This document shows, one piece after another, positions 1,856 through 59,880 of a DNA stretch of 64,000 nt. The position numbers and the translations under genes were made by a program. The stretch is from the human T2T-CHM13v2.0 reference genome, Homo sapiens. Location: positions 1,632,001 through 1,696,000 of the forward strand of contig CP086569.2 of NCBI GenBank assembly GCA_009914755.4, written 5' to 3'. The first letter of the stretch is position 1. Every line of letters begins with the position of its first letter. The notes under the pieces were generated by a model. It searched no databases. It saw only the letters and a list, made by a program, of their open reading frames with translations, and was not told the DNA's origin.

Positions 1856-2327
<472 letters not shown>

Positions 2328-2380
2328 TGCAATCACCTTTTAAATAATCTATCAGTATCCAGATACTGCTTTTCTTTTCT

Positions 2381-2676
<296 letters not shown>

Positions 2677-2732
2677 TGCAATCACGTTTTAAATAGTCTA
2701 TCAGTACCCAGATACTGCTTTTCTTTTCTTTT

Positions 2733-3044
<312 letters not shown>

Positions 3045-4576: not shown

Positions 4577-4639
4577 AAGTGCCTTTTTTCATATAATGAC
4601 TTCTTTTCCACTGTGTAGATACTCAGTTCTGAGATTGCT

Positions 4640-5085
4640 GGATCAAATTGTTGATCTACTTTTAGTTCTTCAAGGAACCTCCATACCTGGATCAAATGGT
4701 AGTTCTATTATTAGTTCTTCAAGGAGTCTCCATACCTGGATCAAATGGTAGTTCTAGTATTAGTTCTTTAAGGAGTCTCCATACCTGAATCCAATGGTAG
4801 TTCTACTATTAGTTCTTTAAGGAGTCTCCATACCTGGATCAAATGGTAGTTCTATTATTAGTTCTTTCAGGAATCTCCATACCTGGATCAAATGGTAGTT
4901 CTAGTTTTAGTTCTTCAAGGAGTCTCCATACCTGGATCAAATGGTGGTTCTATTATTAATTCTTCAAGGAATCTCCATACCTGGATCAAATGGTGGTTCT
5001 ATTATTAGTTCTTTAAGGAGTCTCCATACCGGGAACAAATGGTAGTTCTAGTATTAGTTCTTTAAGGAATCTCCGCAGTGGTTTC
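4640..5085. repeat. Internal tandem array of a 49-bp unit x9 inside L1 ORF2 3' region
   Basis: Unit CTGGATCAAATGGTAGTTCTATTATTAGTTCTTCAAGGAGTCTCCATAC starts at about 4640, 4688, 4736, 4787, 4834, 4884, 4933, 4982 and 5031. The L1 consensus carries it once. Confidence 0.85.
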
Positions 5086-14307: not shown

Positions 14308-15085
14308 CACACTGATGGTTATCACAAGTGGCCTGGGAGGTGTTCTGTTGGCCCCAGGGGTTCACTGACCATCATCACAGGTGGCCTGTGATGTGTTGAC
14401 TTGGTGGGGCCCACTGACCACCATTGCTGGTGGCCTTAGAGGTGATCTGTTGACCCCAGGGGCTCACTGGTGACCACTGCCGGTAGCCTGGGAGGTGGTC
14501 TGTTGACCTTGGGGACTCATTGATGACCATTACAGGTGGCCTGGGAGATGGTCTGTTGACCCTGGGGAGTCACTGATGACCATTTCAAGTGGTCTGTTGA
14601 CCTTGGGGGCTCACTGACGGCCATTGCAGGTTGTCTGGGAGGTGGTGTGTTGACCTTGTGGGCTCACTGATGGCCATTGCTGGTGGCCTTGGCGATGATG
14701 GTCTGTTGACCCCAGGGGCTCACTGGTGACCACTGCAGGTGGGCTGGGAAGTGGTCTGTTGACCTGGGGACTCACTGACCACCATTGCTGGTGGCCTTGG
14801 AGATGGTTTGTTGACCTTGGGGACTCACCACCATTGCAGGTGACTTGGAGATGGTTTGTTGACCTTGGGGACTCACTGACCACCACTGCAGGTGACTTGG
14901 GAGATGGTTTGTTGACCCTGGGGACTCACTGGTGACCATTACAGGTGGGCTGGGAAGTGGTCTCTTGACCTGGGGACTCACTGACCACCACTGTTGGTGG
15001 CCTTGGAGATGGTTTGTTGACCCCAGGGGCTCACTGATGACCATTGCAGGTGGCCTGGGGGATGGCCTATTGACTGGGCACATCC
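14308..15085. repeat. Minisatellite of ~53-bp unit x15
   Basis: CACTGA(C/T)(C/G)ACCA(T/C)TGC(A/T)GGTGGCCTGGGAGATGGTCTGTTGACC(T/C)TGGGGACT is repeated with 41-56-bp variants. The repetitive ORFs at 14611-15120 are artefacts. Confidence 0.9.
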
Positions 15086-17836: not shown

Positions 17837-18157
17837 AAACAAGAAGGGTGAGTTTAAAAGCTTGTGTACCTGCGCAGAACTTCAAGAAAATATTGCAATG
17901 TTATCTTCTTCACTTTCAGCCAGAAACTTAGCCAGGTGTGGTGGCAGGTGCCACCTGGAGATCTGGATGGGGGTCGTATGAGAACATCACGTTCTTTTTC
18001 TGAGCCTCTGGTATCCAGCCTAGCCTGTAGGCATTGCTTCCTCCGATGGGCAGTTTGTGCCTTTGGAAATCACCCTTCTACCTCCCATACCCCCATCCCA
18101 ATATCTCTGTGTGCTTGGCACATAGGAGGTGGGACATTTGGTAGAGAAAATACGTGC

Positions 18158-19594: not shown

Positions 19595-20289
19595 TTATGA
19601 CTGGAAGGGAGGCTTCAGGTACTCGGAGGAAACATGGGGATTAAAAGCACAAGAAAACAGTCATTTTGCAACAGGAATATATCTGGCAGGGACCTCCAAA
19701 TCCCAATTGTGGACCCATTGCTGGCTGCAAGCACAGGCTCTCAAACCTGGTTGGGCAGTGGGGACCCTCTGGGCAGAATCACCTCCATCCCACCTGGGTT
19801 TCCACTTTAAACCCCCCAGTGGGGATTTTCCCATTCTGGAGACCTGGATGGGGTCCTCTGAGAACATCAGGCTCTTTTTCTGAGCCTTTGATCTCCAGCC
19901 TAGCCTGAATCAGGCTGGATGTCAGAGGTGCATCCTCCTTAGAATGAAGGAAGAAGGGACTTGGTAGTGTTCTATGTACACACGGCAGGGTGATGCTTTG
20001 GGGTGTTTGTAAACGAGGTTTCTCCCTCTCATTCAGTTGCTCATCTTCCCTTTCACCCACTGCCCTGCCAACTAATTTGAGTAGCCTGATGGTGCTTGCT
20101 TCATCTCGCCAGGGGAGGGATGGGTTAGACCAGAGAGATGGAGAAAAACCAGCCTCTCCCTCGCTTGACTTCAAGGTCTGTTTTCAAGAGGGAGGCGCGC
20201 GTGGGTTTGGGTTAGACCTAAAGTGGTTGATGCTTAGAGGGAGGGATTTCTTTGCTCTCAGACTAGGGGGCAGAGATGAGGTAGCGAGG

Positions 20290-21101
20290 ATGGAATATAG
20301 AGGTGATTGAAGGTATCTGGAAAGATATGCGTGGGCAATATGCAAATATTACACCATTTTATATAAGGGACATCCATGAATTTTACTAGCATCTGCTGAG
20401 TGTCCTGACATCAATCCTCCACAGATAACAAGGGATGACTGTATATAGATGACTTAGAGATACAGAAAGATATATAGAGAGATAGGGCGATACAGAGATG
20501 AAAGATTGATTGATGATAGATACCTGGATGGATAGATAGGAGATAGATAAATACATAGATACATAGATAGACGACAGATAGATACATAGATAGATAGATA
20601 CATACATAGATAGATGATAGAAAGATAGATGATAGATGGTAGATAGATAGATAATAGATAGATAAGTAAATAGATAGTAGACAGAAGATAGACAGTAGAC
20701 AAGTAGCTGGTAGGTACATAGTAGAAAAGTGGTAGATAGATAGATAGAAGACAAGTCGCTGGTAGGTAAGTAGACAGACAGTAGACAGGTAGCTGTGTAG
20801 ACAGATGATAGATAGATAGATAAGATAGATAGAAACATAGATGATAGGAGACAGGTACATAGATATCTGGATGAATAGATAGGAGATAGATGACAGATAG
20901 ATAGATAGATGATAGATGGTAGATAGATAGATAATAGATAAGTAAATAGGTAGATAGTAAACAGAGATAGAAGATAGATAGTAGACAAGTAGCTGGTAGG
21001 TAGATAGGTAGATAGAAAAGTAACTGGTAGATAGATAGAAGACAAGTAGCTGGTAGGTAGGTAGATAGAAAGACAGTAGACAGGTAGCTGTGTAGACAGA
21101 T

Positions 21102-21147
<46 letters not shown>

Positions 21148-21260
21148 CAAAGATAGATAGTAGATAGATAGTAGATAGAAAGATAGATAGATGGATAGTA
21201 GATAGATAGATAGAGATAGATGATAGATAGGAGACAGGTACATAGATTGATGTCGTGTTG
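20290..21260. repeat. Left arm of a large inverted repeat: ~160 bp unique flank plus ~800 bp (GATA)n/(GATG)n tetranucleotide array
   Basis: Flank ..GAAGGTATCTGGAAAGATATGCGTGGGCAATATGCAAATATTACACCATTTT..CATCCATGAATTTTACTA..CACAGATAACAAGGGATGACTGTATATAGATGACTTAGAGATACAGAAA, then gatagatagatag.. The ORFs 20386-21490 (300-360 aa, S/I/Y/L-rich) are artefacts. Confidence 0.85.
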
Positions 21261-21934
21261 ATTGACAGATGATAGAGCCATATACACTGAGGTGTGTACA
21301 CACACATGTATAAACGCACATTGGATATACAGATGTATATATAGAGAGAGAACCATATGCACAGAGTCATGTACTCATATGCCCCCCACTGCTGTGTCAC
21401 TGCGTACATTTTCAGAAATCCACCTATTTCTGAGTCGAGGAAGAACCTGCTCTCCCAGGGGTAAAGGGGTGTGCCGCTCCAGGATGACATGCCACCCTGG
21501 TGTTGACTCTTTCAGCCCCACACACAAACCCCACCCGCTGGGTCAGGGTTTACACCCTCTTCAGTGAATGTCCTGGATTTCCTGGAGAGGCTCAGCCAGG
21601 CAGGAGGGGACCAGGAGAGGCGCTGGCCATTCCTCCAGTTTGGTCACCAAGAGGTGGGTGGTTTCAGCCTGAAAGATGCACCTGCAGGACCTGTGGGTTG
21701 AGTAGATGGTGTCACCTGAGGGGCAGGGGATGACCAGCGTCCCTGGGTGGAGAGGGCTGCGTGGACAGTGCACTCATCCCACCTTGCTGCCCCTCAGTCG
21801 CCTGGCCACAGAGACTCCGGGTCCACCACATTGAACCCCCACTGCCACGATGCCCTTCACCCTTGACGTGAAAGTCCCTTCCTCACCTGAGCCCGCCAAC
21901 GTCTCTCCATCCTCACTTCCTCATCTCTGCCCCC

Positions 21935-22610
21935 AGTCTATCTACTTATCTATTTATCTATGTATCTATCTATCTACTATCTATGTATCTATCTATCTAC
22001 TATCTATCTATATCTATGTATCTATTATCTATCTATATCTATGTATCTATGTATTATCTATCTATATCTATCTATGTATCTATCTCTATCTACCTATCTA
22101 TCATCTATGTATCTATTTATCTATCTAGCTATCTATGTGTGTATCTAGTATCTATCTATCTAGCTATGTATCTATGTATTATGTATCTATCTTCTATCTA
22201 TATCTATCTATCTATGTATCTATCTATCTCTATCTATCATCTATGTATCTCTCTATCTAGCTATCTATGTATCTAGTATCTATCTATCTGGCTATCTATG
22301 TATGTATCTATGTATTATCTATCTTCTATCTATCCATCCATATATCTATCATCAGTCAATCAATCCTTTCATCGCTGTATCGCTCTATCCAGGTATCTTA
22401 TCTATTTATTTTTCTCTTTCTATATTTCTGTATCTCTAACTCATCTATATACAGTCATCCCTTGTTATCTGTGAGGGATTGGTTCCAGGACACACGACAG
22501 ATAATAGTAAAATTCATGGATGTGGCTGATAGAAAATGGTGTAGTATTTGCATATTAGCTATGCACATCCTTCCAAATACCTTCAATTGCCTCTATATTA
22601 CTTATAATAC
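21935..22610. repeat. Right arm of the inverted repeat: (TATC)n array (~410 bp) plus inverted copy of the unique flank
   Basis: ctatctacttatctatttatctatgtatc... The reverse complement of 22440-22600 matches 20300-20455 (CACAGATAACAAGGGATGACTGTATATAGATGA, ATATGCAAATA(C/T)TACACCATTTT, TGAAGGTAT(C/T)TGGAA). Confidence 0.85.
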
Positions 22611-22784
22611 TTAATACAATGTAAGTGCTATGTAAATAGTTACTATACCATATTGTTCAGGGAATAATGTTTTAAAAAGTCTGTACATGTTCAGTACAGA
22701 TGCATTTTTTTCCAAATATTTTTCATCTGTGGTTGGTTGAATCCACGGATTTGGAAGCCACAGATATGAACAGCCAACTCTGTG

Positions 22785-23405
22785 TGAGTGTGTGGGTATA
22801 TATACATATGTATGTGTGTATACATGTATATGTATATATGTATGTGTGTATATGTGTATATATGTGCGTATAGATGTATGTGTGTATATATGTACATGTA
22901 TATATGTATGAGTGTATATATGTGTATATGTATATGTGCATTTATATGTATATATATGTGCATATATGTATGTGTATATATGTACACGTATATATGAGTA
23001 TATATGTGATTTGTATATATGTATGTGTATATATGTGCGTATGTATATGTATATGTGTGTATGTTTATATGTACATGTGTATATATGTACATGTGTGTAT
23101 ATATGTATATATGCATGTGTGTATATCTGTCTGCATGTACATGTATGTGTGTATATATGTATATGCACATATGTCTGCGTGTACATATGTGTGTATATAT
23201 GTATATGTTTATATGCACGTATGTACATGTATATATGTGTGTATATATGTACATGTATATATGTATGTGTGTATATATGTGTGTATATATGTATGTGTGT
23301 GCATATGTATGTGTATGTGTGTGTGTAGATATGTATATGTACGTGTGTATATATGTGTGAATATGTATGTGTGTATATATGTATATGTGTATTCGTGTAT
23401 GTATA
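22785..23405. repeat. Complex TG/TA (TATGTGTA/TACATA)n repeat of ~620 bp
   Basis: tgggtatatatacatatgtatgtgtgtatacatgtatatgtatatatgtatgtgtgtatatgtg... The ORFs 22611-23524 (MYTYTNTHIHIY..) are artefacts. Confidence 0.9.
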
Positions 23406-27654: not shown

Positions 27655-28673
27655 ATATTCTCTCTCTGTCTTTCATCTGTCACTATTGTTACTATTCTAT
27701 CTGTTCATCTATCTATTAATATCTACATATCTTCTATATATCATCTATTATCTAACATCTACCTATATCTATATATCATGTATTATCACGTATCTATCCA
27801 TTGTCTATTTCTGTCATTTATCATTCTGTGTATTGATCATCTTTTTTTCTATCATCTATGTAACTCATCTATCATCTGTCATGTCTATCATCTATCTATT
27901 TTTCTATCATCTGTGCATTGATCGATCTAGCATCTATTATCCCTCTCTATCATCTATTGATCTATCTACATATCTATCCGTCTACCTACTTAGCATCTAT
28001 CTGTCATCTATTGGTCTTTCTACATATCTACCTACCTACCTACCTACTCAGCATCTATGTATCTGTGTATCCATCTATCATCTATTGATCTTCCTACATA
28101 TCTACTTACCTACCTACTCAGCATCTATGTATCTATCTATCATCTATTGATCTCTCTACATATCTACCTACTAACCTACTCAGCGTCTATGTATCTATGT
28201 ATCTATCTATCATCTATTGATCTCTCTACATATCTACCTACCTACCTACTCAGCGTCTATGTATCTTTGTATCTAGCTATCATCTATTGATCTATCTACA
28301 CATCTATCTACCTACTTAGCATCTATCATCTATTGACCTATCTATATATCTATCTACCTACCTACTCAGCATCTATTATCTATCATCTATCTATCATCTA
28401 TCTAATCTATCTATTGTCTATTGATCTATCTACACATCTATCTACCTACCTAGTTAGCATCTATCATCTGTTATCTATCTACATATGTGTCTACCTATCT
28501 ACTTAGCATCTATCTATCATCTATTGATCTATCTATATATCTATCTATCTACCTACTTAGCATCTATCTCTGTATCATCTATTGATCTATCTACATATCT
28601 ACCTACCTATCTACTTAGCATCTATCTATCACCTATTGGTCTATCTACATGTCTATATACCTACCTCCTTAGC

Positions 28674-28720
<47 letters not shown>

Positions 28721-28905
28721 ATCTATTGATCCATCTACTTGTCTATATACCTACCTCCTTAGCATCTATCTAATCTATCATCTGTCTATCTATCTATCTA
28801 TCCAGCTATCTCTCATCTATTTACCTAAGTATTCTCTCTCTCTCTCTCTCTCACTCTTGCTCTCTCCCCCTTGCTCTCTCCCTACTACCTATCTATTATA
28901 TATCT
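27655..28905. repeat. ATCT/TATC-derived degenerate array with ~60-70-bp higher-order units (contains pure (TATC)12 at ~28670 and (CT)n at ~28827)
   Basis: The unit ..CTCAGCATCTATGTATCTATCTATCATCTATTGATCT(C/T)TCTACATATCTACCTACCTACCTACT.. recurs at about 28049, 28118, 28179 and 28248. Confidence 0.85.
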
Positions 28906-29635: not shown

Positions 29636-29639
29636 GACT

Positions 29640-30545
29640 ATCATCTATCTATCATCTCTATTTATCTATCACCTCTATCTATCTATCGTCTATCCCTCAT
29701 CTCCATCTATCTATTATCTATCGACCTATCATCAATCTATCATCTATTATCTATCTATGTATCTATCTATCCTTTCCATCTATCATGTCTATTTATCTAA
29801 CCTGTCTATTATCTATGTATCTCTCACCTCCATCTATTATCTATCGATCTATCATCTATCATCTATGTATCTCTCATCTCCATCTATTATCTATTATCTA
29901 TTGATCTATCATCGATCATGTGTTATCTGCCTATCTATCATCTATTATCTGTCTCTCATCTCCATCTATTATCTATCGATTTATCATTTATCTATCATCT
30001 ATTATGTGTCTATCTATCCTTTCCATCTATCATCTCTATTTATCTATCCTATCTATGTACCTCTCATCTCCATCTATTATCTATCGATCTATCATCCGTC
30101 TATCATCTATGTATCTCTCATCTCCATCTATTATCTATCGATCTATCATCTATCTATGATCTATGTATCTCTTATCTCCATCTGTCTATTATCTATCTAT
30201 TGCCTATTGATCCATCATTATCTGCCTATCTATCATCTATTATGTATGTATCACTCATCTCCATCTATTTTCTATAGATCTATCATGTATCTATCATCTA
30301 TTATGTATCTATCTATTATCTATGTATCTCTTATCTCCATCTATTATCTATTTTCTATAGATCTATCATCTATCTATCATCTATTATGTACGTATCTCTC
30401 ATCTCCATCTATTATCTATAGATCTATCATGTATCTATCTTCTATTATCTATCTATCTATCTATCTATCCTTTCCATCTGTCTATCATCTATTATCTATC
30501 TATCTATCTATCTACCCTTTCCATCTATCCATCATCTATCATTTA
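29640..30545. repeat. ATCT-derived minisatellite with ~50-63-bp higher-order unit x~15
   Basis: CTCTCA(T/C)CTCCATCTATTATCTATCGATCTATCATCTATCATCTATGTAT is repeated. The ORFs 29588-30590 (277 aa etc.) are artefacts. Confidence 0.85.
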
Positions 30546-32907: not shown

Positions 32908-33913
<1,006 letters not shown>

Positions 33914-38897: not shown

Positions 38898-39346
38898 CAC
38901 ATTTTTCCCCTCTTACAATGACAGTATCATGTTGCATCAGGGGCCAACTCCGCTTCATTCTGACCAAATCTTTACGAATTGCATCTGCAAAGGCTCTATT
39001 TCCAAACGAGGTCACACTTGAGCTTCTGAGCAGACGTGAATTTGAGGGGTACATGTTTCAACCCCATTCACATCAACGTCTTTTTCTTCTTTAGCAATCA
39101 GTGAAGATAATAAGGTCATTTTTATTCTGAGAGGAAATGTGAGTTCGTCTCGTCTCAGAGGATTGCTCAGAGTCCAGTTGAGCATGGCTGGGGTGCTAGG
39201 CTGTGCCGTTCTTGCTCTAAGCCCGAGGGATAACTAATTTCCATTATTTTGTTCTTGCCGCCTCATAATTTGTCTACATGGGGGTGAGGAGAGTGAATGT
39301 CCTGTTACAGGAAGCTGTTGCGGGTGGACTATTTAAAGGGATTTCA

Positions 39347-40643
39347 GGCCAGGTGCGGCAGCTTATGCCTGTCATCCCACCACTTTGGGAGGCCGAGGAG
39401 GGTGGATCACAAGGTCAGGAGTTCGAGACCAGCCTGGCCGATATGGTGAAACTCCATCTCTACTAAAAATACAAAAATTAGCCGGGTGTGCTGTCGGGCG
39501 CCTGTAATCCCAGCTACTCAGGAGGCTGAGGCAGGAGAATCTCTTAGAACCCGGGAGGCGGAGGTTGCAGTGAGCCAGATTGGGCCACTGCACTCCAGCC
39601 TGGGTGACAAGAGGGAGACTCCATCTCAAAAAAAATCATAAAATAAAAAATTAATTAATTAAAAAGGCTAGGTGCAGTGGCTCATGCCTGTAATCCCAGC
39701 ACTTTGGGAGGCCGAGGTGGGCAGATCACCTGAGGTTGGGGGTTTGAGACCATCCTGGCCAACATGGTGAAACCCCATCTCTAGTAAAATACAAAAATTA
39801 GCTGGGTGTGGTGTCGGGTGCTTGTAATCTCAGCTACTCAGGAGGCTGAGGCAGAATCTTAGAATCCAGGAGGTGGAGGTTGCAGTGAGCCGAGATCAAG
39901 CCATTGCACTCCAGCCTGGGCGACAAGAGGGAGACTCTGTCTCAAAAAAATACATAATATAATAAAAATAAATAAATAATAAAATAGGCCAGGCACGGTG
40001 GTTCACGCCTGTAGTCCCAGCACTTTGGGAGGCCAAGGCGGGTGGATCACCTGATGTCAGGTGTTCGAGACCAGCCTGGCCAACATGGTGAAACCCCATC
40101 TCTACGAAAAATACAAAAATTAGGTGGGTGTGGTGTCGGGCGCCTGTACTCCCAGCTTCTCAGCAAGGTGAGGCAGGAGAATCTCTGAGAATCCGGGAGG
40201 TGGAGGTTGCAGTGAACTGAGATTGGGCCACTGCACTCCAGCCTGGGCGACAAGAGGGAGACTCTGTCTCAAAAAATATATATATATAAAATAAATAATT
40301 AATAAAATAGGTCAGGTGCACTAGCTCATGCCTGTCATCCCAGCACTTTGGGAGGCCAAGGCAGGTGGATCACCTGATGTCAGGACTTCGAGACCAGCCT
40401 GGCCAACATGGTGAAACCTCGTCTCTACTAAAAATACAAAAATTAGCCGGGTGTGGTGTCGGGCGCCTGTAATCCCAGCTTCTCAGGAGGCTGAGGCAGG
40501 AGAATCTCTTAGAACCCCGGAGGCAGAGGTTGCAGTGAGCTGAGATTGCACCACTACACTCCAGCCTGGGCGACAAGAGGGGGACTCCATCTAAAAAAAA
40601 AAATGATAAAAAATAAATAATATAAAAAGTAAAATAAATAAAA
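39347..40643 (+). mobile_element. Head-to-tail tandem array of 4 complete Alus (39347-39665, 39666-39985, 39986-40309, 40310-40643), with one TSD pair flanking the whole array
   Basis: All four copies share the private variants GTGGTGTCGGGCGCCTGTAAT, GAGAATCTCTTAGAA(C/T)CC(G/A)GGAGG and GACAAGAGGGAGACTC, and (AATA/AAAT)n tails. The outer flanks are AAAGGGATTTCA|GGCCAGG and ...AAATAAATAAAAGGATTTCAGAGG. Confidence 0.9.
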
Positions 40644-43392: not shown

Positions 43393-46300
43393 ACAACAGT
43401 AATAATATGATACTACCACTGCATGAGAGCAGTAATAACAACAACAGTAATACAATACCACCGCCGTGTGAGAGCAGTAATAACTACAACAGTAATACGA
43501 TACCACCGCTGCATGAGAGCAGTCATAATCACAACAGTAATATGATACTACCGCCGCATGAGAGCAACAACAGTAATATGATACTACTGCCGCATGAGAG
43601 CAGTAATAACAACAGTAATATGATACTACCACTACATGAGAGCAGTCATAATCACAACAGTAACATGACACCACCGCCGCATCAGAGCAGTAATAACAAC
43701 AACAGTAATATGATACTACCGCCGCATGAGAGCAGTAATAACAACACTAATATGATACTACCACTACATGAGAGCAGTCATAATCACAACAGTAACATGA
43801 CACCACCGCCGCATGAGCAGTAATAACAACAACAGTAATATGATACTACCGCCGCATGAGAGCAGTAATCACAACAGTAATATGATACTACCGCTGCATG
43901 AGAGCAGTAATAACAGTAATATGATACTACCGCCGCATGAGAGCAGTAATAACAGTAATATGATACTACCGCCGCATGAGAGCAGTAATAACAACAGTAA
44001 TATGATACTACCGCCGCATGAGAGCAGTCATAATCACAACAGTAATATGATACTACCGCCGCATGGGAGCAGTAATAACAACAACAGTAATATGATACTA
44101 CCGCCGCATGAGAGCAGTAATAACAACAGTAATATGATACTACCGCTGCATGAGAGCAGTAATAACAGTAATATGATACTACCGCCGCATGAGAGCAGTA
44201 ATAACAACAGTAATATGATACTACCACTACATGAGAGCAGTCATAATCACAACAGTAATATGATACTACCACTACATGAGAGCAGTCATAATCACAACAG
44301 TAATATGATACTACCACTACATGAGAGCAGTCATAATCACAACAGTAATATGATACTACCGCCGCATGGGAGCAGTAATCACAACAGTAATATGATACTA
44401 CCGTTGCATGAGAGCAGTAATAACAACAACAGTAATATGATACTACCGCCACATGAGAGCAGTAATCACAACAGTAATATGATACTACCGCCGCATGAGA
44501 GCAGTCATAATCACAACAGTAATATGATACTACCGCCACATGAGAGCAGTAATAACAACAGTAATATGATACTACCACTACATGAGAGCAGTCATAATCA
44601 CAACAGTAATATGATACTACCACTACATGAGAGCAGTCATAATCACAACAGTAATATGATACTACCACTACATGAGAGCAGTCATAATCACAACAGTAAT
44701 ATGATACTACCGCTGCATGAGAGCAGTAATAACAACAGTAATATGATACTACCGCCGCATGAGAGCAACAACAGTAATATGATACTACTGCCGCATGAGA
44801 GCAGTAATAACAACAGTAATATGATACTACCGCCGCATGAGAGCAGTAATAACAACAGTAATATGATACTACCACTACATGAGAGCAGTCATAATCACAA
44901 CAGTAATATGATACTACCGCCGCATGAGAGCAGTAATCACAACAGTAATATGATACTACCGCTGCATGAGAGCAGTAATAACAGTAATATGATACTACCG
45001 CCACATGAGAGCAGTAATAACAGTAATATGATACTACCGCCGCATGAGAGCAGTAATAACAACAGTAATATGATACTACCGCCGCATGAGAGCAGTCATA
45101 ATCACAACAGTAATATGATACTACCACTACATGAGAGCAGTCATAATCACAACAGTAATATGATACTACCGCTGCATGAGAGCAGTAATAACAACAGTAA
45201 TATGATACTACCGCCGCATGAGAGCAGTAATAACAGTAATATGATACTACCGCCGCATGAGAGCAGTCATAACAGTAATATGATACTACCGCCGCATGAG
45301 AGCAGTAATAACAACAGTAATATGATACTACCGCTGCATGAGAGCAGTAATAACAACAGTAATATGATACTACCACTACATGAGAGCAGTCATAATCACA
45401 ACAGTAATATGATACTACCGCCGCATGGGAGCAGTAATCACAACAGTAATATGATACTACCGTTGCATGAGAGCAGTAATAACAACAACAGTAATATGAT
45501 ACTACCGCCGCATGAGAGCAGTCATAATCACAACAGTAATATGATACTACCGCCGCATGAGAGCAGTCATAATCACAACAGTAATATGATACTACCGCCA
45601 CATGAGAGCAGTAATAACAACAGTAATATGATACTACCACTACATGAGAGCAGTCATAATCACAACAGTAATATGATACTACCACTACATGAGAGCAGTC
45701 ATAATCACAACAGTAATATGATACTACCACTACATGAGAGCAGTCATAATCACAACAGTAATATGATACTACCGCTGCATGAGAGCAGTAATAACAACAG
45801 TAATATGATACTACCGCCACATGAGAGCAGTAATAATCACAACAGTAATATGATACTACCGCCGCATGAGAGCAGTAATCACAACAGTAATATGATACTA
45901 CCGCCACATGAGAGCAGTAATAACAGTAATATGATACTACCGCCACATGAGAGCAGTAATCACAACAGTAATATGATACTACCACTACATGAGAGCAGTC
46001 ATAATCACAACAGTAATATGATACTACCGCTGCATGAGAGCAGTAATAACAACAGTAATATGATACTACCGCCACATGAGAGCAGTAATAATCACAACAG
46101 TAATATGATACTACCACTACATGAGAGCAGTCATAATCACAACAGTAATATGATACTACCGCCACATGAGAGCAGTAATAACAACAGTAATATGATACTA
46201 CCGCCGCATGAGAGCAGTAATAACAGTAATATGATACTACCGCCACATGAGAGCAGTAATAACAGTAATATGATACTACCGCCACATGAGAGCAGTAATC

Positions 46301-47310
46301 ACAACAGTAATATGATACTACCACTACATGAGAGCAGTCATAATCACAACAGTAATATGATACTACCGCCGCATGAGCAGTAATAACAGTAATATGATAC
46401 TACCGCCGCATGAGAGCAGTAATAACAACAGTAATATGATACTACCACTACATGAGAGCAGTAATAATCACAACAGTAACATGACACCACCGCCACATGA
46501 GAGCAGTAATAACAACAGCAATATACTACCGCCGCATGAGAGCAGTAATAACAACAGTAGTATGATACTACCACTACATGAGAGCAGTCATAATCACAAC
46601 AGTAATATGATACTACCGCCGCATGAGAGCAGTAATAACAGTAATATGATACTACCGCCGCATGAGAGCAGTAATAACAGTAATATGATACTACCGCCGC
46701 ATGAGAGCAGTAATAACAAGAGTAATATGATACCACCACCGCATGAGAGCAGTAATAACAACAGTAATATGATACCACCGCCACATGAGAGCAGTAATAA
46801 CAACAGTAATATGATACTACCACTACATGAGAGCAGTCATAATCACAACAGTAATATGATACTACCACTACATGAGAGCAGTCATAATCACAACAGTAAT
46901 ATGATACTACCGCCGCATGAGAGCAGTAATAACAGTAATATGATACTACCGCCACATGAGAGCAGTCATAATCACAACAGTAATATGATACTACCGCCGC
47001 ATGAGAGCAGTAATCACAACAGTAATATGATACTACCGCCACATGAGAGCAGTCATAATCACAACAGTAATATGATACTACCACTACATGAGAGCAGTCA
47101 TAATCACAACAGTAATATGATACTACCACTACATGAGAGCAGTAATAACAACAGTAATATGATACTACCGCCACATGAGAGCAGTCATAATCACAACAGT
47201 AATATGATACTACCGCTGCATGAGAGCAGTAATAACAAGAGTAATATGATACCACCGCCACATGAGAGCAGTAATAACAACAGTAATATGATACTACCAC
47301 CGCAGGAGAG
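43393..47310. repeat. Large minisatellite/VNTR of about 90-95 copies of a 39/42/45-bp unit with two unit subtypes
   Basis: Subtype P is AGCAGTAATAAC(AAC)0-2AGTAATATGATACTACCGCCGCATGAG (39, 42 or 45 bp). Subtype L is AGCAGTCATAATCACAACAGTAATATGATACTACCACTACATGAG (45 bp). The ORFs 43813..46383(+) of 856 aa and 43784..46324(-) of 846 aa are non-stop frames of the unit. Confidence 0.95.
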
Positions 47311-47345
47311 CAGTAGTAGGAGTAATAATAAAGTTAACAGCAGCA

Positions 47346-48254: not shown

Positions 48255-48735
48255 GGCTTAACCAACAGACATTGATTCTCCCACAGTCCTGGAGGCTGCA
48301 AGTCTGAGATCCAGGTGTGGGCAGGGCTGGTTCCTCCTGAGGCCTCTCTCCTTGGCTTGGAGACACTGTCTTCTCCCTGCAGCCTCACAGGGTCATCCCT
48401 CTGTGTGTGTCTGTGTCCTCACCTCCTCTTCTTATGAGATGCCTTAGTCCATTTCAGGCTGCTAACACAGAATACCATAGACTGGGTGACTTATAAACAA
48501 CAGACATTGATTCTCCCACAGTCCTGGAGGCTGGAAGTCTGAGATCCAGGTATGGGCAGGGCTGGTTCCTCCTGAGGCCTCTCTCCTGGGCTTGTAGACG
48601 CCGTCTTCTCCCTGTGCCCTCACAGGGTCATCCCTCTGTGTGTGTCTGTGTCCTCACCTCTTCTTCTTATGAGATGCCTTAGTCCATTTCAGGCTGCTAA
48701 CACAGAATACCATAGACTGGGTGACTTATGAGCAA
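48255..48735 (-). mobile_element. Two tandem ~240-bp copies of a MaLR-type LTR 3' part (antisense)
   Basis: CCATAGACTGGGTGACTTATAAACAACAGACATTGATTCTCCCACAGTCCTGGAGGCTGGAAGTCTGAGATCCAGGT..GGGCAGGGCTGGTTCCTCCTGAGGCCTCTCTCC...CTCACAGGGTCATCCCTCTGTGTGTGTCTGTGTCCTCACCTC appears twice. It is the reverse complement of the ..CCAGAACTGTGAG..AAGCCACCCAGTCTATGGTATT.. tail family. Confidence 0.6.
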
Positions 48736-49539
48736 CAGACATTGATTCTCCCACAGTCAAGACAGGGGAAGACCATGGAGAGGAGGGTCATGTATCTGTA
48801 ACTCTTGAACATTTTATTCCAGGATCAAGTAAACGTGCCAATATTTGGGTTAGCTTTCTGCTTTTTCTCCGGCAAAACACGACAATTTACACTGCATTGA
48901 ATTTAAGGATGGTTGCTTTCTCCTTGACATGCCAACAGAACAAACAGGGTCTCCGATTCTGAAATGACTCCAGATTTGGGAGACAAAGTTGTGTCAGCCA
49001 ATTTCTACAGATGCTGTCTGTAGACTCTGCTTGTGCCTGCATTTGGCTTTACAGATTCAGGCTGTGTTTCTGGAGCCGCCTCGCACGTTCTCCTCTATTG
49101 AGATTATAAAATTATCAAAAGCTTGAAGGTAAATGCTCTCTGTTGACTCAACACGATTACAACTTTGTGTGTGTGTGTTTGCTGCAGTGCAGCGCACAAG
49201 TTTTATAGGACAACCTGAGCCTTCATTTCTTCAGTTTGACATTCTGAGTTTAAGACAAAGGGAATGATCACCCCGCCGTGTTCTTGGTAAAGGAAGAGTG
49301 TTAGAGCATCATGGCAGTATTCTTCCAGCCTCCAGGAAGAGAAGCTTTTAAAATGACAATTTCTGATTTGACATTTTCACTTGTAACACCCTAGAGGTAT
49401 AGGCAGGTCTTGCATCTGCAAAAGGTTATTGCTGTGGAGAATTGGGAGCTGTGGTAAATGAAGTGTGACCGCCTTGCCCACAGTAAGGCAGGGAAGACAA
49501 GAGAATGTAAAAAATGTGAATACCTTGAGGAAGACAGTG

Positions 49540-50700: not shown

Positions 50701-53700
50701 CCTCCGCCAACAGGGAACAGATTTCAGCATGAGACCCAAACACCTCCACCCAGTCCCACCTCCATCACTGGGAACCAGATTTCAGCATGAGACCCAAACC
50801 CCTCACCCAGCCCCACCTCCATCACTGGGAACAAGATTTCAGCATGAGACCAAACACCCTCACACAGACTCACCTCCAACAATGGGGACCAGATTTCAGC
50901 ACGAGACCAAACACCCTCACCGAGCCCCACCTCCAACACTAGGGACCAGATTTCAACATGAGAAACAAACACCTCCATCCAGCCTCACCACTAATACGGG
51001 GGACCAGATTTCAGCATGAGACCCAAACACCCTCACCCAGCCCCACCTCCCACACTGGGAACAAGATTCCAGCATGAGACCAAACACCCTCACACAGACT
51101 CACCTCCAACAATGGGGACCAGATTTCAGCAATAGACCCAAACACCCTCACCCAGCCCCACCTCCAAACTGGGGACCAGATTTCAGCATGAGACCCAAAC
51201 ACACTCACGCAGCCCCAACTCCAACACTGGGGACCAGATTTCAGCATGAGACACACACACCTCCACCCGGCCTCACCCCCAACACTGGAGACCAGATTTC
51301 AGCATGAGACCCAAACACCCTCATCCAGACCCACCTCCAACAATGGGGACCAGATTACAGCATGAGACCCAAACACTTCCACCCAGCCCCACCGCCAACA
51401 CTGGGGACCAGATTTCAGCAGGAGACCCAAACACCCTCATCCAGACCCAACTCCAACATTGGTGACCAGATTTCAGCATCAGAACCAAACACCCTCACCC
51501 AGCCCCACCCCTAACACTGGGGACAAGATTTCAGCATGAGACCCAAACAACTCTATCCAGCCTCACCACCAACACTGGGGACCAGATTTCAGCATGACGC
51601 CTAAACACCCTCACACAGACCCACCTCCAACACTGGAGACAGATTTCAGCATGACATGCAAACATCTCGACCCAGCCCCACCTCCAACACTGGGAACCAG
51701 ATTTCAGAATGAGACCCAAACACTTCCACCCAGCCCCACCTCCAACATTGGGGAGCAGATTTCAGAATGAGACCCAAACACCTCCACCTGGCCTCACCTC
51801 CAACTTCAGGGACCAGATTTCAGCATAAGACACAAACACCTCCACCCAGACCCACATCAAACACTGGGAACAAGATATCAGCATGAGACCCAAACACGTC
51901 CACCCAGCCCCACCTCCAACAATGGGGACCAGATTTAAGCATGAGGCGAAAACACCCTCACCCAGACCCACCTCCAACACTGGGGACCAGATTTCCGCAT
52001 GGCACCCAAACACGCTCATCCAGACCCACCTCCAACATCGGTGAAAAGATTTCAGCATGAGACCCAAACACGCTCACCCAGCCCCACCCCTAACACTGGG
52101 AACAAGATATCAGCATGAGACCCAAACACCCTCACCCAGCCCCACCTCCAACAATGGGGACCAGATTTCAGCATGAGACCCAAACACCTCCACCTGGCCT
52201 CATCCCCAACACTGGGGACCAGATTTCAACATGAGACGCAAACACCTCCACCTGGCCTCACCTCCAACTTCAGGGACCAGATTACAGCATGAGACCCAAA
52301 CACCTCCACCCAGACCTACCTACAACACTGGGAAACAGATTTCTGCCTGAGACCCAGACACCTCCATCCAGCTTCACCACCAGCACTGGGGACCAGATTT
52401 CAGCATGAGACCCAAACACCCTCAGCCAGCCCCACCTCCAACACTGCGGACGAGATTTCAGCATGAGACCCAAACATCCTCACCCAGCCCCACCCCTAAC
52501 ACTTGGGACCAGATTTCAGCATGAGACCCAAACACCCTCACCCAGCACCCCCTCCAACACTGGGGATGAGATTTCAGCATGAGACCCAAACACCCTCACA
52601 GAGCCCCACCCCTAACGCTGGGGACCAGTTTTCAGCATGAGACCCAAACACCTCCATCCAGCCTCACCACCAACACTGGGGACCAGATTTCAGCATGAGG
52701 CCCAAATACCCTCACCCAGACCCACCTCCAACACTGGGGACGAGATTTCAGCATGAGGCCCAAACACCCTCACGCAGACCCACCTCCAAAACTGGGGACC
52801 AGATTTCAGCATGAGACCCAAACACCTCCACCCAGCCTCAACACCAATACTGGAGACCAGATTTCAACATGAGACCCAAACACCTCCACCCGGCCTCAAC
52901 ACCAATACTGGAGACCAGATTTCAACATGAGACCCAAACACCTCCACCCAGCCTCACATCCAATACTGGAGACCAGATTTCAGCATGAAGCCCAAACACC
53001 CTCACCCAGCCCCATCTCCAATAATGGGTACCGGATTTCATCATGAGACCCAAACGCTTCAACCCAGCCCCAACTGCAACACTGGGGAACAGATTTCAGC
53101 ATGAGACACAAACACCCTCCCCAAGACCCACCTCAAACACTGGGGACCAGATTTCAGCATGAGACCCAAACACCTTCACCCAGCACCACCCCTAACACTG
53201 GGGACCAGATTTCAGCATGAGACCCAAACACCTTCACCCAGCACCACCCCTAACACTGGGGGCCAGATTTCAGCATGAGACCCAAACACCCTCACCCAGC
53301 CCCACCTCCAACACTGGGGACAAGATTTCAGCATGAGACCCAAACACCCTCACCCAGCCCCACCCCTAACACTTGGGGACCAGATTTCAGCATGAGACCC
53401 AAACACCTCCATCCAGCCTCACCTCACCTGGGACCAGATTTCAGCATGAGACCCGAACACCTCCATCCAGCTTCACCACCAACACTGGGGACCAGATTTC
53501 AGCATGAGGCCCAAATACCCTCACCCAGACCCACCTCCAACACTGGGGACCGGATTTCAGCATGAGACCCAAACACCTCCATCCAGCCTCACCACCAACA
53601 CTGGGGACCAGATTTTAGCATGAGACCCAAACACCCTCACCCAGCCCCACCCCTAACACTTGGGACCAGATTTCAGCATGAGACCCGAACACCCTCACCC

Positions 53701-54335
53701 AGCACCCCCTCCAACATTGGTGACCAGATTTCAGCATGAGACCCAAACACCCGCACCCAGCCCCACCCCTAACACTGGGGACCAGAATTCAGCATGAGAC
53801 CCAAACACCTCCATCCAGACTCACCTCCAACTTTGGGGACCAGATTTCATCATGAGATCCAAACACCTCCATCCGACTGGCCTCACCTCCAACAGTTGGG
53901 GCCAGATTTCAGCATGAGACCCAAACACCTCCATCCGGCCGGCCTCACCTCCAACATTGGGGACCAGATTTCAGCGTGAGACCCAGACACCCTCACCCAG
54001 CACCCCCCCAACACTGGGGACCAGATTTCAGCATGAGAGCGAAACACCTCCATCCAGCCTCACCACCAATACTGGGGACCAGATTTCTGCATGAGACTCA
54101 AACACCTCCATGCAGCCGGCTTCACCTCCAACACTGGGGCGAGATTTCAGCATGATACCCAAACACTTCCACCTGGCCTCACCTCCAACACTGGGGCGAG
54201 ATTTCAGCATGATACCCAAACACTTCCACCTGGCCTCACCTGTAACAGTGGAGACCAGATTTCAGCATGATTCCCAAACACCTCCACCTGGCCTCACCTC
54301 CAACATCAGGGATCAGATTTCAGCATGAGATTTGG
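50690..54335. repeat. Satellite-like tandem array of a ~59-bp unit x~62 (3.6 kb), with the unit derived from the terminal ~60 nt of a MaLR LTR
   Basis: Unit CCAGATTTCAGCATGAGACCCAAACACC(C/T)TCACCCAGCCCCACCTCCAACACTGGGGA has a period of 59 bp (for example 50772->50831). Perfectly identical adjacent units occur at 53160-53280 and 54130-54230. The ORFs 50600-54328 are artefacts. Confidence 0.9.

Positions 54336-59185: not shown

Positions 59186-59880
<695 letters not shown>

What the first reader, a model, noticed from the sequence alone, without database searches (positions are those of the whole stretch)
20290..22610. About 2.3-kb palindrome: inverted duplication whose arms each contain a long GATA-type tetranucleotide array plus ~160 bp of matching unique flank
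The left arm (20290-21260) reads unique flank then (GATA)n. The right arm (21935-22610) reads (TATC)n then unique flank. The right-arm flank is the reverse complement of the left-arm flank. For example CACAGATAACAAGGGATGACTGTATATAGATGA(C/G)TTAGAGATACAGAAA and ATATGCAAATA(T/C)TACACCATTTT..CATCCATGAATTTTACTA are present in both arms, in opposite orientation. So this is a true inverted duplication, not two coincidental microsatellites.

The arms are separated by a ~675-bp GC-rich unique spacer. Long palindromes of tetranucleotide arrays can extrude hairpins or cruciforms. They are associated with replication stalling, deletion and rearrangement. The arms have also diverged in array length (~800 versus ~410 bp).
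Basis: seen in the sequence. Interest (0 to 1): 0.6.

Follow-up and report, generated by a model that had tools for sequence, protein, structure and literature searches.

The report
Old small inversion with duplicated ends
The two opposed GATA/TATC arrays with matching flanks are a real but ancient inverted duplication in a primate genome, best read as the scar of a ~1-2 kb inversion that copied both of its breakpoints; it is an ordinary, apparently neutral relic rather than an unstable palindrome.

Summary
20294-20957 aligns in reverse complement to 22599-21938 (77% over 703 columns). The 174-bp flank aligns without gaps at 86%.

The flank is the first ~148 bp of a ~330-bp Tigger-like DNA transposon. 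The copy at 22452-22781 is complete. The left copy (20441 back to 20294) is truncated.

The arms are sister copies, not independent insertions:
- They are 84% alike, against 41-70% to 11 other family members.
- They share a 3-bp insertion and a 6-bp deletion.
- Homology runs ~150 bp past the transposon end into the array.

It abuts the outer edge of the left arm and the inner edge of the right arm. The layout U-p-E'-spacer-p'-E-rest is the footprint of an inversion with duplicated breakpoints (staggered breaks, or two template switches: 'dupINVdup'). A simple copy-and-flip cannot give this order.

Arm divergence (6.7% per lineage at non-CpG sites) matches the local Alus (7.7%), so the event is tens of millions of years old.

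A 677-bp spacer and 77-86% arm identity lie outside the range where palindromes are fragile in duplex DNA.

No outgroup sequence could be obtained. Known kind, low interest.

The parts
20262..20293 (+). Short duplicated breakpoint segment 'p' (ACTAGGGGGCAGAGATGAGGTAGCGAGGATGG). It is continuous with the upstream unique sequence U and abuts the outer edge of the left arm (novel junction 20293|20294).
   Evidence: local alignment with the reverse complement of 21907-21937, 29/32 matches, score 47 against a shuffle null of 19.8 +/- 2.4 (max 35). No other copy in the window.
20294..20441 (-). Left arm, transposon part (T1'): the first ~148-151 bp of a Tigger-like non-autonomous DNA transposon in reverse orientation. 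It is truncated at 20294, where it joins p.
   Evidence: aligns to consensus positions 1-151. (follows the empirical family consensus, then departs from it exactly at ...CTCTATATT). (84% identical to the right copy, 41-70% to other family copies).
20442..20600 (+). Left arm, non-transposon part that is still collinear with the right arm: the TA target site, TATAGATGACTTAGAGATACAGAA, and the degenerate start of the array (GATAGGGCGATACAGAGATGAAAGATTGATTGATGATAGATACCTGGATGGATAG...).
   Evidence: (I10), 6 and 24: collinear tiles score 57-105 against 37-67 for the next-best place.
20464..21260 (+). Left (GATA)n-type array. It contains an internal tandem duplication (20531-20957 ~ 20807-21245, 80%). 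Its inner end joins the spacer; in the model this is an ancestral junction, now inverted.
   Evidence: TRF 20464-21230, period 4, 201 copies, 67% matches..
21261..21906 (.). Unique spacer S, inferred to be inverted relative to the upstream sequence U. No coding, Pfam or Rfam signal.
   Evidence: spacer 21261-21937, which includes p': 677 bp, GC 55%. (no families). Orientation is inferred from the positions of p and p'.
21907..21937 (-). Second copy of the short breakpoint segment (p'). It is continuous with the spacer and abuts the inner end of the right array (novel junction 21937|21938).
21938..22451 (-). Right arm, non-transposon part: the (TATC)n-type array (128-bp higher-order period) plus the array-proximal segment (about 22290-22451) that is collinear with 20442-20600.
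   Evidence: TRF 21937-22350, period 4; period 128 x 3.2 copies at 81%..
22452..22781 (+). Full-length Tigger-like non-autonomous DNA transposon (TA|CAGTC...CAACTCTG). Its first 148 bp (22452-22599) are the right arm's unique flank. The element runs uninterrupted across the arm boundary 22599|22600, which marks this copy as the original.
   Evidence: consensus 1-344 aligns to 22452-22779. (empirical consensus from 15 independent copies: family homology begins at TA|CAGTC and ends at CAACTG|TA; TIR 19/25 in the consensus).

Best explanation
This is the fixed, ancient product of one small rearrangement in a primate genome: an inversion of roughly 1-1.4 kb in which both breakpoints were duplicated.

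Inferred ancestral order: U - p - S' - (TATC)n - transposon. U-p-S' was one continuous unique sequence. The tetranucleotide array already lay next to the 5' end of a Tigger-like transposon.

Two mechanisms give the same product:
- Two pairs of staggered breaks, one pair 32 bp apart around p and the other a few hundred bp apart (from within or at the edge of the array to position ~150 of the transposon), followed by fill-in and end joining.
- Two replication template switches.

Either way the segment between was inverted and the sequence between each pair of breaks was left on both sides in opposite orientation. The result is the present order: U - p - [transposon fragment' + GATA array] - S - p' - [TATC array + transposon fragment] - rest of transposon.

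Since then the copies have diverged by about 14% and the arrays have turned over independently. The structure has no evident function.

Shown here: the homology of the arms, their sister relationship, the second repeat p/p' and its exact abutment to the arm edges, the intact transposon on the right, and the age relative to Alus.

Inferred: the ancestral order, the one-step mechanism, and neutrality.
For: 1. The arms are true paralogues. They are 84% identical in the transposon part, against 41-70% to any of 11 other family copies. In 29 columns both arms agree against the family consensus, including a 3-bp insertion absent from 15/15 other copies and a 6-bp deletion. Only 11 and 10 changes are arm-specific.
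2. Homology runs past the transposon terminus (TA|CAGTC at 22452 / 20441). It covers 26 nt without gaps and ~120-160 nt more with collinear distinctive motifs.
3. A second inverted repeat p/p' (29/32; score 47 vs 19.8 +/- 2.4) is unique in the window and touches 20293|20294 and 21937|21938 exactly. The order p-E'-S-p'-E is the a-B-E'-mid'-B'-E-f pattern of the staggered-break model. In that model duplications ranged from 46 bp to 1.9 kb, median 321 bp (PMC1885836). It also matches the human dupINVdup class (PMC5338099).
4. Polarity: the right transposon copy is continuous across the arm boundary, while the left copy is cut there and joined to p.
5. Only two novel junctions are needed.
6. p/p' (3 differences in 32) and the flank (25/174) are similarly diverged.
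7. The left array is the only one of four GATA-type arrays in the window that lies in GATA orientation on the + strand.
8. Age: 6.7% per lineage at non-CpG sites, against 7.7% for the 43 local Alus.
Against: - No outgroup or orthologous sequence could be obtained, so the ancestral order U-p-S' is inferred, not observed.
- Nothing else in the window spans the reconstructed junction.
- A strand test on the spacer's repeat-like edge was inconclusive (27 vs 38).
- p is only 32 nt.
- A two-step history gives the same end product: an inverted insertion with a 32-bp target duplication, followed by a recombinational flip of the spacer between the arms.
- Microhomology at the two novel junctions is 1-2 nt. 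After ~14% divergence it cannot separate end joining from template switching.
- Array collinearity beyond ~160 nt is not demonstrable, so the size of the larger duplicated segment at the time of the event (~300 to ~660 bp) is uncertain.
Confidence: 0.62

Rival explanations
1. Two-step history with the same end product. First, an inverted copy of [array + first ~150 bp of the transposon] was inserted between U-p and S' with a 32-bp direct target duplication of p, giving U-p-E'-p-S'-E. Later, homologous recombination between the then near-identical inverted arms flipped the intervening p-S' segment, giving U-p-E'-S-p'-E.
For: It reproduces every junction observed. Inverted repeats of a few hundred bp can mediate inversion of the sequence between them; this rests on established knowledge of NAHR. 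The microinversion literature stresses the role of flanking inverted repeats (PMC8755829).
Against: It needs two independent events and an unusually long 32-bp target duplication. There is no poly(A) or other mark of a retrotransposition-type insertion at the left arm. The one-step model needs only two new junctions.
Confidence: 0.2
2. A plain inverted duplication of [array + flank], with the spacer in its original orientation. The p/p' match would be incidental, for example a short templated filler inserted at a junction.
For: The arm homology itself. Short templated insertions at rearrangement junctions are known; this is my own knowledge and was not tested here.
Against: A copy-and-flip of p'-array-flank would give flank'-array-p, with p next to the spacer. 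The observed order is p-flank'-array. The rival needs four novel junctions instead of two, and a filler that happens to sit exactly at the inner end of the other arm. p/p' is highly significant and unique in the window.
Confidence: 0.1
3. Two independent insertions of the same transposon family in opposite orientation, each of which happened to acquire a GATA-type microsatellite beside it.
For: The unique flank is a dispersed repeat: 15 independent copies were recovered elsewhere. The window contains two further GATA-type arrays, so such arrays arise readily in this region.
Against: - Homology continues 26 nt without gaps and ~150 nt in total beyond the transposon terminus.
- The arms are far closer to each other (84%) than to any other copy (41-70%). 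They share a 3-bp insertion found in 0/15 other copies and a 6-bp deletion.
- The left copy is truncated exactly where arm homology ends.
Confidence: 0.02
4. A structurally active palindrome: the arms pair as a hairpin or cruciform (or as double-stranded RNA if transcribed) and cause replication stalling, deletion or rearrangement, or serve a regulatory or boundary role.
For: As a free 2,338-nt single strand with DNA parameters, the region folds arm on arm. MFE is -511 kcal/mol, against -242 +/- 13 for shuffles and -174 with the right arm flipped. 152/174 flank positions form mirror pairs and there are 421 array-array pairs. In long single-stranded regions, inverted repeats with 25% divergence and kb-scale spacers can still interact (PMC10164571).
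Against: - In duplex DNA, fragility drops ~300-fold from a 12-bp to a 100-bp spacer and disappears at 75% homology. Here the spacer is 677 bp and arm identity is 77-86%.
- The arms have diverged at about the local neutral rate. There is thus no sign of homogenisation or of selection, and the structure has survived for tens of millions of years.
- No RNA family or coding signal was found.
Confidence: 0.06
5. Assembly or sequencing artefact, for example a fold-back chimera.
For: Inverted duplications around low-complexity arrays are a known failure mode of assemblies; this is my own knowledge.
Against: Artefactual fold-backs give near-identical arms. Here the arms differ at 25/174 flank positions plus several indels, array lengths differ, and there is a 677-bp unique spacer.
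Confidence: 0.01

Closest known systems
Inversions flanked by inverted duplications of their breakpoint sequences: the staggered-break model of Ranz et al. 2007 in Drosophila (PMC1885836)
   Same: - Two different sequences, one from each breakpoint, are each present twice in inverted orientation at the two ends of the inverted segment.
- The order is a-B-E'-mid'-B'-E-f.
- Duplication sizes (32 bp and ~300-660 bp) fall in or close to the reported range of 46 bp to 1.9 kb.
- The copies then diverge by substitutions and small indels.
   Different: - The Drosophila cases are chromosomal inversions of kb-to-Mb scale, defined by comparison between species. Here the inverted middle is only ~650 bp and no outgroup was available.
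- One duplicated segment here is itself a microsatellite plus a transposon fragment.
dupINVdup complex structural variants in human genomes (Collins et al. 2017, PMC5338099; usually attributed to replication-based template switching)
   Same: An inversion with a duplication at each end, arising as one event, in a primate genome.
   Different: Described cases are polymorphic or de novo variants, typically much larger, and detected by read mapping. This one is fixed in the sequence given, ~14% diverged, and sub-2-kb.
Microinversions and short-range template switches in great apes (PMC8755829; PMC7954356)
   Same: A small inverted segment bounded by inverted repeats. Template switching or break-induced replication are proposed mechanisms.
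   Different: Those events are 17-33 nt (or shorter), with pre-existing short flanking inverted repeats of 3-75 nt and no duplication of hundreds of bp. Here the inverted repeats appear to be products of the event, not its cause.
Fragile long palindromes and closely spaced inverted Alu pairs (Lobachev laboratory work; PMC10164571)
   Same: Inverted repeats a few hundred bp long that can pair if single-stranded.
   Different: Fragile examples have near-identical arms and spacers of ~10-100 bp. Here the spacer is 677 bp (1.96 kb between the unique flanks) and arm identity is 77-86%.
Tigger-like (pogo / Tc1-mariner superfamily) non-autonomous DNA transposons of eutherian genomes. From memory the sequence looks like the short element RepeatMasker calls Tigger3a; that name was not verified.
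   Same: - ~330-345 bp, with TA|CAGT...ACTG|TA ends and a ~25-nt terminal inverted repeat in the family consensus.
- Many dispersed, CpG-decayed copies.
   Different: It is only the raw material for the arms' 'unique flank' and plays no demonstrated part in the rearrangement. The window copy's own terminal repeats are too decayed to be significant.

Membership tests
Inversion with duplicated breakpoints (staggered-break / dupINVdup class) | Two distinct sequence pairs, each in inverted orientation, arranged a-B-E'-middle-B'-E-f | tested here: met
   E'/E = 20294-~20600(-20957) vs 22599-~22290(-21938). B/B' = 20262-20293 vs 21937-21907. Both abutments are exact.
Inversion with duplicated breakpoints (staggered-break / dupINVdup class) | For each pair, one copy keeps its ancestral continuity with the outside flank and the other sits at a novel junction | tested here: met
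   The right transposon copy runs uninterrupted across 22599|22600 and follows the family consensus to its 3' end. The left copy leaves the consensus at 20294 and joins p. For p the same is inferred but cannot be checked without an outgroup.
Inversion with duplicated breakpoints (staggered-break / dupINVdup class) | Both duplicated pairs are the same age | tested here: inconclusive
   p/p' has 3 differences in 32 columns (2 mismatches and 1 indel, ~9%). The flank has 25/174 (14.4%). These are compatible, but p is too short for a real test.
Inversion with duplicated breakpoints (staggered-break / dupINVdup class) | An outgroup shows the un-inverted, unduplicated arrangement | not testable with these tools
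   Scans for the locus or the family in genome contigs, viral contigs and metagenome contigs found no orthologue. Five exact-ORF look-ups found nothing.
Tc1/mariner-type (Tigger-like) non-autonomous DNA transposon (identity of the 'unique flank') | Dispersed multi-copy family with sharp common ends | tested here: met
   32 contigs fall into 15 independent loci. Column agreement is 0.8-0.99 inside the element and ~0.4-0.6 outside it. The ends are at TA|CAGTC and CAACTG|TA.
Tc1/mariner-type (Tigger-like) non-autonomous DNA transposon (identity of the 'unique flank') | Terminal inverted repeats | tested here: met
   The empirical consensus ends pair at 19/25, score 20 against a null of 11.7 +/- 2.0. 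In the decayed window copy alone the test fails: score 16 against 14.5 +/- 2.2.
Tc1/mariner-type (Tigger-like) non-autonomous DNA transposon (identity of the 'unique flank') | TA target-site duplication | tested here: met
   TA precedes CAGTC and follows ACTG in the family consensus, and at 22450-22451 / 20442-20443 in the window. At the 3' end of the window copy, CAACTCTG is followed by TG, which is decayed.
Tc1/mariner-type (Tigger-like) non-autonomous DNA transposon (identity of the 'unique flank') | Match to a named curated consensus (Repbase/Dfam) | not testable with these tools
   No repeat library is available. A consensus I recalled from memory aligns over positions 1-344, with differences mostly at CpG sites. 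The family name remains unverified.
Fragile / cruciform-forming palindrome | Near-identical arms (fragility is lost at about 75% homology in duplex DNA) | tested here: not met
   86% in the flank and 77% over the whole arms, with many indels in the arrays. Threshold taken from PMC10164571.
Fragile / cruciform-forming palindrome | Short spacer (tens of bp) | tested here: not met
   677 bp between the arrays and 1,958 bp between the gapless flanks. A 12-to-100-bp increase already gives a ~300-fold drop.
Fragile / cruciform-forming palindrome | Arms can pair intramolecularly when single-stranded | tested here: met
   MFE -511 kcal/mol against -242 +/- 13 (shuffles) and -174 (flipped-arm control). 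152/174 mirror pairs. This is in silico only.
Fragile / cruciform-forming palindrome | Observed instability (breaks, deletions, orientation or copy variants) | not testable with these tools
   No population or cross-species data were available. Indirectly, neutral-rate divergence of the arms argues for long-term stable inheritance.

The most novel reading that the evidence does not exclude
The inverted arms are not just a scar. The GATA-type array may have been the fragile or stalling site that triggered a replication template switch. The resulting inverted repeat may still matter, for example by letting the 677-bp spacer flip between orientations in present-day populations. If the locus is transcribed, it could also form a long double-stranded RNA hairpin that is an editing substrate or promotes back-splicing. 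This would make it a natural, datable example of a microsatellite-seeded dupINVdup with continuing consequences.
Probability: 0.1. Interest if true: 0.45.

Novelty: new member of a known kind. Interest (0 to 1): 0.25.

Why it matters
The mechanism class is known, so the value is mainly as a clean worked example. A kilobase-scale inversion with both breakpoints duplicated can be recognised from a single genome sequence. The cues are the relative placement of two unequal inverted repeats, and a transposon that is intact on one side and truncated on the other, which gives polarity. Such relics are probably common and usually get annotated only as 'simple repeat + DNA transposon fragment'. The case also shows that two opposed microsatellite arrays should not be read as an unstable palindrome without checking spacer length, arm identity and age. 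If primate comparisons confirm the prediction, the locus gives a dated example, at about the age of the main Alu expansion, of this rearrangement class with a breakpoint at a tetranucleotide array.

Tried and rejected
- Independent copies of the flank family by exact-pattern scans: two patterns in genome contigs and one in viral contigs gave nothing. A 21-nt core in metagenome contigs gave 32 contigs, which I used after collapsing 17 redundant ones.
- Orthologous or allelic copies of the locus: a 32-nt spacer pattern in metagenome contigs gave nothing. Exact-ORF look-ups with five ORFs in or next to the structure gave nothing. I ran no further search on spurious ORFs, because short-read contigs would break at the arrays and would not show the ancestral state.
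- Terminal inverted repeats in the window's own transposon copy: not significant. I used the family consensus instead.
- A sequence elsewhere in the window or in the fetched loci that spans the reconstructed junction U-p-S': only Alu hits, none spanning.
- Strand test of the spacer's (CA/TA)-like edge against the (TG/TA)n array right of the transposon: 27 (plus) vs 38 (minus), composition unbiased, inconclusive.
- Collinearity of the deep parts of the arrays: not demonstrable.
- Relationship to the other two TCTA arrays at 27.7-28.8 and 29.6-30.5 kb: array-only similarity, no shared flank, so they are not further copies.
- Coding or RNA function: Pfam on six local ORFs gave nothing. Rfam at gathering thresholds gave nothing and there are no tRNAs. 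A permissive Rfam scan gave only sub-threshold, repeat-driven miRNA-like matches in the (TG/TA)n array.
- p/p' as terminal inverted repeats of a mobile element spanning 20262-21937: rejected. There is no matching target duplication in the flanks and no other copy of p. It also would not explain why the element's interior starts with a copy of the sequence lying just outside its other end.
Full report
**1. The observation**

Reading 19900-23000 shows a (GATA)n-type array on the left and a (TATC)n-type array on the right. The two are separated by unique sequence.

- TRF places the arrays at 20464-21230 (767 bp) and 21937-22350 (414 bp).
- The inverted-repeat finder reports arms 20294-20480 / 22413-22599, 187 nt at 85%.
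- Gapped BLAST extends this to 20294-20957 vs 22599-21938, 76% over 699 columns, E = 6e-127.
- My own local alignment gives 541/703 identical. The flank 20294-20467 aligns to 22599-22426 without a gap, with 25 differences in 174 positions.
- The spacer 21261-21937 is 677 bp with 55% GC.

Two refinements are needed. Register-specific homology inside the arrays is demonstrable only for the first ~120-160 nt next to the flank. Beyond that, tiles of the right array match the purest GATA tract of the left array as well as or better than the collinear position. The extra length of the left array corresponds to an internal tandem duplication, 20531-20957 ~ 20807-21245 at 80%.

**2. What the flank is**

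The window is primate. The 36-nt Alu 5' signature occurs 7 times against 0 expected, and 43 near-full-length Alus are present.

The 'unique flank' looked to me like the end of a Tigger-type DNA transposon. A 344-nt consensus that I recalled from memory aligns end to end with 22452-22779, with differences mostly at CpG sites. Its first 151 nt align with 20441 back to 20294.

Because a recalled sequence is only a lead, I looked for independent copies. A 21-nt core found 32 metagenome contigs, which are host DNA since they carry Alus. These collapse to 15 independent loci.

Their alignment shows family homology with 0.8-0.99 column agreement. It begins at TA|CAGTC and ends at CAACTG|TA, with ~0.4-0.6 agreement outside those ends. 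The consensus ends form a 19/25 terminal inverted repeat, score 20 against 11.7 +/- 2.0.

The right-hand copy (22452-22781) is thus a complete ~330-bp non-autonomous Tc1/mariner-type element. The left arm contains only its first ~148 bp, in reverse orientation.

**3. Paralogues or independent insertions?**

- In the transposon part the arms are 84% identical to each other, but only 41-70% identical to any of 11 other family members that cover the segment.
- In 29 columns both arms agree against the family consensus. These include a 3-bp insertion found in none of the 15 other copies and a 6-bp deletion. Only 11 (left) and 10 (right) changes are arm-specific.
- Homology continues past the transposon terminus. 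TATATAGATGA(C/G)TTAGAGATACAGAA aligns without gaps. Distinctive non-GATA motifs then follow in order (GATAG(G/A)GCGATACAG(A/C)GATGAAAGGATTGATTGA..., CTGGATGGATAGATAG...).

Independent insertion is therefore excluded. A fold-back assembly artefact is excluded by the 14% divergence of the arms.

**4. A second inverted repeat changes the interpretation**

The 32 nt immediately left of the left arm are 20262-20293, ACTAGGGGGCAGAGATGAGGTAGCGAGGATGG. They are the reverse complement of 21907-21937, the last bases of the spacer before the right array. The match is 29/32, score 47 against 19.8 +/- 2.4 (max 35) for shuffles, and it occurs nowhere else in the window.

I use these labels:
- p: the 32-nt segment
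- E: [array + first ~148 bp of the transposon]
- S: the spacer
- U: the upstream sequence
- T2: the remainder of the transposon

The present order is U - p - E' - S - p' - E - T2.

A simple copy-and-flip of p'-E would give E'-p, with p next to the spacer. That is not what is seen. The observed order is exactly what an inversion with duplicated breakpoints produces: ancestral a-B-middle-E-f becomes a-B-E'-middle'-B'-E-f.

Ranz et al. described this for Drosophila inversions and explained it by paired staggered breaks, fill-in and end joining, with duplications of 46 bp to 1.9 kb (PMC1885836). In human structural-variant catalogues the same topology is the 'dupINVdup' class (PMC5338099). That class is usually attributed to two replication template switches.

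The inferred ancestral sequence is U - p - S' - (TATC)n - transposon. Only two junctions are new: 20293|20294 and 21937|21938. Each has 1-2 nt of possible microhomology, which is too little and too decayed to choose between end joining and template switching.

Polarity is supported by the transposon. It is continuous across 22599|22600 on the right and is cut at the corresponding point on the left.

If the inner break of the larger pair fell within the array, the left array should be the longer one, with its extra part next to the spacer. That is what is observed. An independent expansion would also explain it.

As circumstantial support, the left array is the only one of four GATA-type arrays in the window that lies in GATA orientation on the + strand.

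**5. Rivals**

A two-step history gives the same product: an inverted insertion of E' with a 32-bp target duplication of p, followed by recombination between the arms that flips p-S'. It cannot be excluded from one sequence. It needs two events and an unusually long target duplication.

Reading p/p' as the terminal repeats of a mobile element fails. There is no target duplication and no other copy. It also leaves unexplained why the element's interior would start with a copy of what lies just outside its other end.

**6. Age**

The arm flanks differ at 14.4% of sites, and 4 of the 25 differences are CpG-type. The non-CpG Jukes-Cantor distance is 0.135, or 6.7% per lineage. The 43 Alus of the same window differ from their consensus by 7.7% on average at non-CpG sites, range 4.4-12.7%.

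The rearrangement is therefore about as old as the bulk of the local Alus. By established knowledge of Alu history (my own knowledge, not tested here), that means some tens of millions of years. The estimate is a minimum if gene conversion ever occurred between the arms. I expect the structure to be shared by apes and Old World monkeys.

**7. Does it act as a palindrome?**

Folded as a free 2,338-nt single strand with DNA parameters, the region pairs arm on arm. MFE is -511 kcal/mol, against -242 +/- 13 for shuffles and -174 when the right arm is flipped. 152 of 174 flank positions form mirror pairs. The thermodynamic potential is real.

In duplex DNA, however, inverted-repeat fragility falls ~300-fold when the spacer grows from 12 to 100 bp, and vanishes at 75% homology. 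Only in long single-stranded regions do divergent, widely spaced repeats interact efficiently (PMC10164571).

With a 677-bp spacer (1.96 kb between the clean flanks), 77-86% identity and many indels, this locus lies outside the fragile range. Its neutral-rate divergence over tens of millions of years shows that it has been stably inherited.

No coding, Pfam, Rfam or tRNA signal lies in or beside the spacer.

**8. What could not be done**

No outgroup or allelic sequence was obtainable. Nothing in the window spans the reconstructed junction. A strand test on the spacer edge was inconclusive. The ancestral order is therefore an inference from the geometry of two inverted repeats and one polarity marker.

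**9. Verdict**

The finding is real, and the 'true inverted duplication' reading is right. The fuller and better-supported description is an ancient, fixed, kilobase-scale inversion with duplicated breakpoints, in which one breakpoint lay at a tetranucleotide array beside a Tigger-like transposon. It belongs to a known class of rearrangement and shows no sign of function or present instability. Interest is low to moderate (0.25).

Noticed in passing
window 27696-28820 and 29638-30540: Two further long TCTA/CTAT-type tetranucleotide arrays (1.1 kb and 0.9 kb), both in the same orientation as the right arm. They share only array-type similarity with the arms and no unique flank. Four kilobase-scale GATA-type arrays within 10 kb is unusual local density.
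   Followed up: partly
window 43403-47315: Large minisatellite: TRF reports period 45 (the printed consensus unit is 42 nt) x ~92 copies at 88% matches, consensus TAATATGATACTACCGCCGCATGAGAGCAGTAATCACAACAG, about 3.9 kb.
   Followed up: no
window 50713-54330: Second large minisatellite: 58-bp unit x ~62 copies at 82% matches (GGGACCAGATTTCAGCATGAGACCCAAACACCTCCACCCAGCCCCACCTCCAACACTG), about 3.6 kb. The region has strongly negative GC skew (-0.3 to -0.4).
   Followed up: no
window 22781-23405: A (TG/TA)n-type array (units such as TGTATATG) starts directly at the 3' end of the full-length transposon. It gives sub-threshold, repeat-driven matches to the mir-297 / mir-466 / mir-1277 models, the best at 48.8 bits against a gathering score of 90.
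   Followed up: partly
whole window; e.g. 2011-3033, 32909-33736, 39346-40621, 59196-59716: Very high Alu density: 43 near-full-length copies in 64 kb, including several head-to-tail Alu clusters that TRF reports as 135-390-bp tandem repeats. Together with the many minisatellites (also 4638-5074, 49 bp x 9; 14324-15074, 53 bp x 14; 48259-48758, 235 bp x 2 at 95%), this suggests a GC-rich, repeat-dense chromosomal region.
   Followed up: no
loci L001-L032 (metagenome contigs): 17 of the 32 metagenome contigs that carry the transposon core are the same locus assembled repeatedly in different samples. Contigs from that cluster carry Alus, so these are primate (probably human) host DNA inside metagenome assemblies.
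   Followed up: partly
window 19836-19907 vs 17955-18027: A 73-nt direct match at 88% just upstream of the structure. It was not seen elsewhere in the window and is of unknown nature.
   Followed up: no
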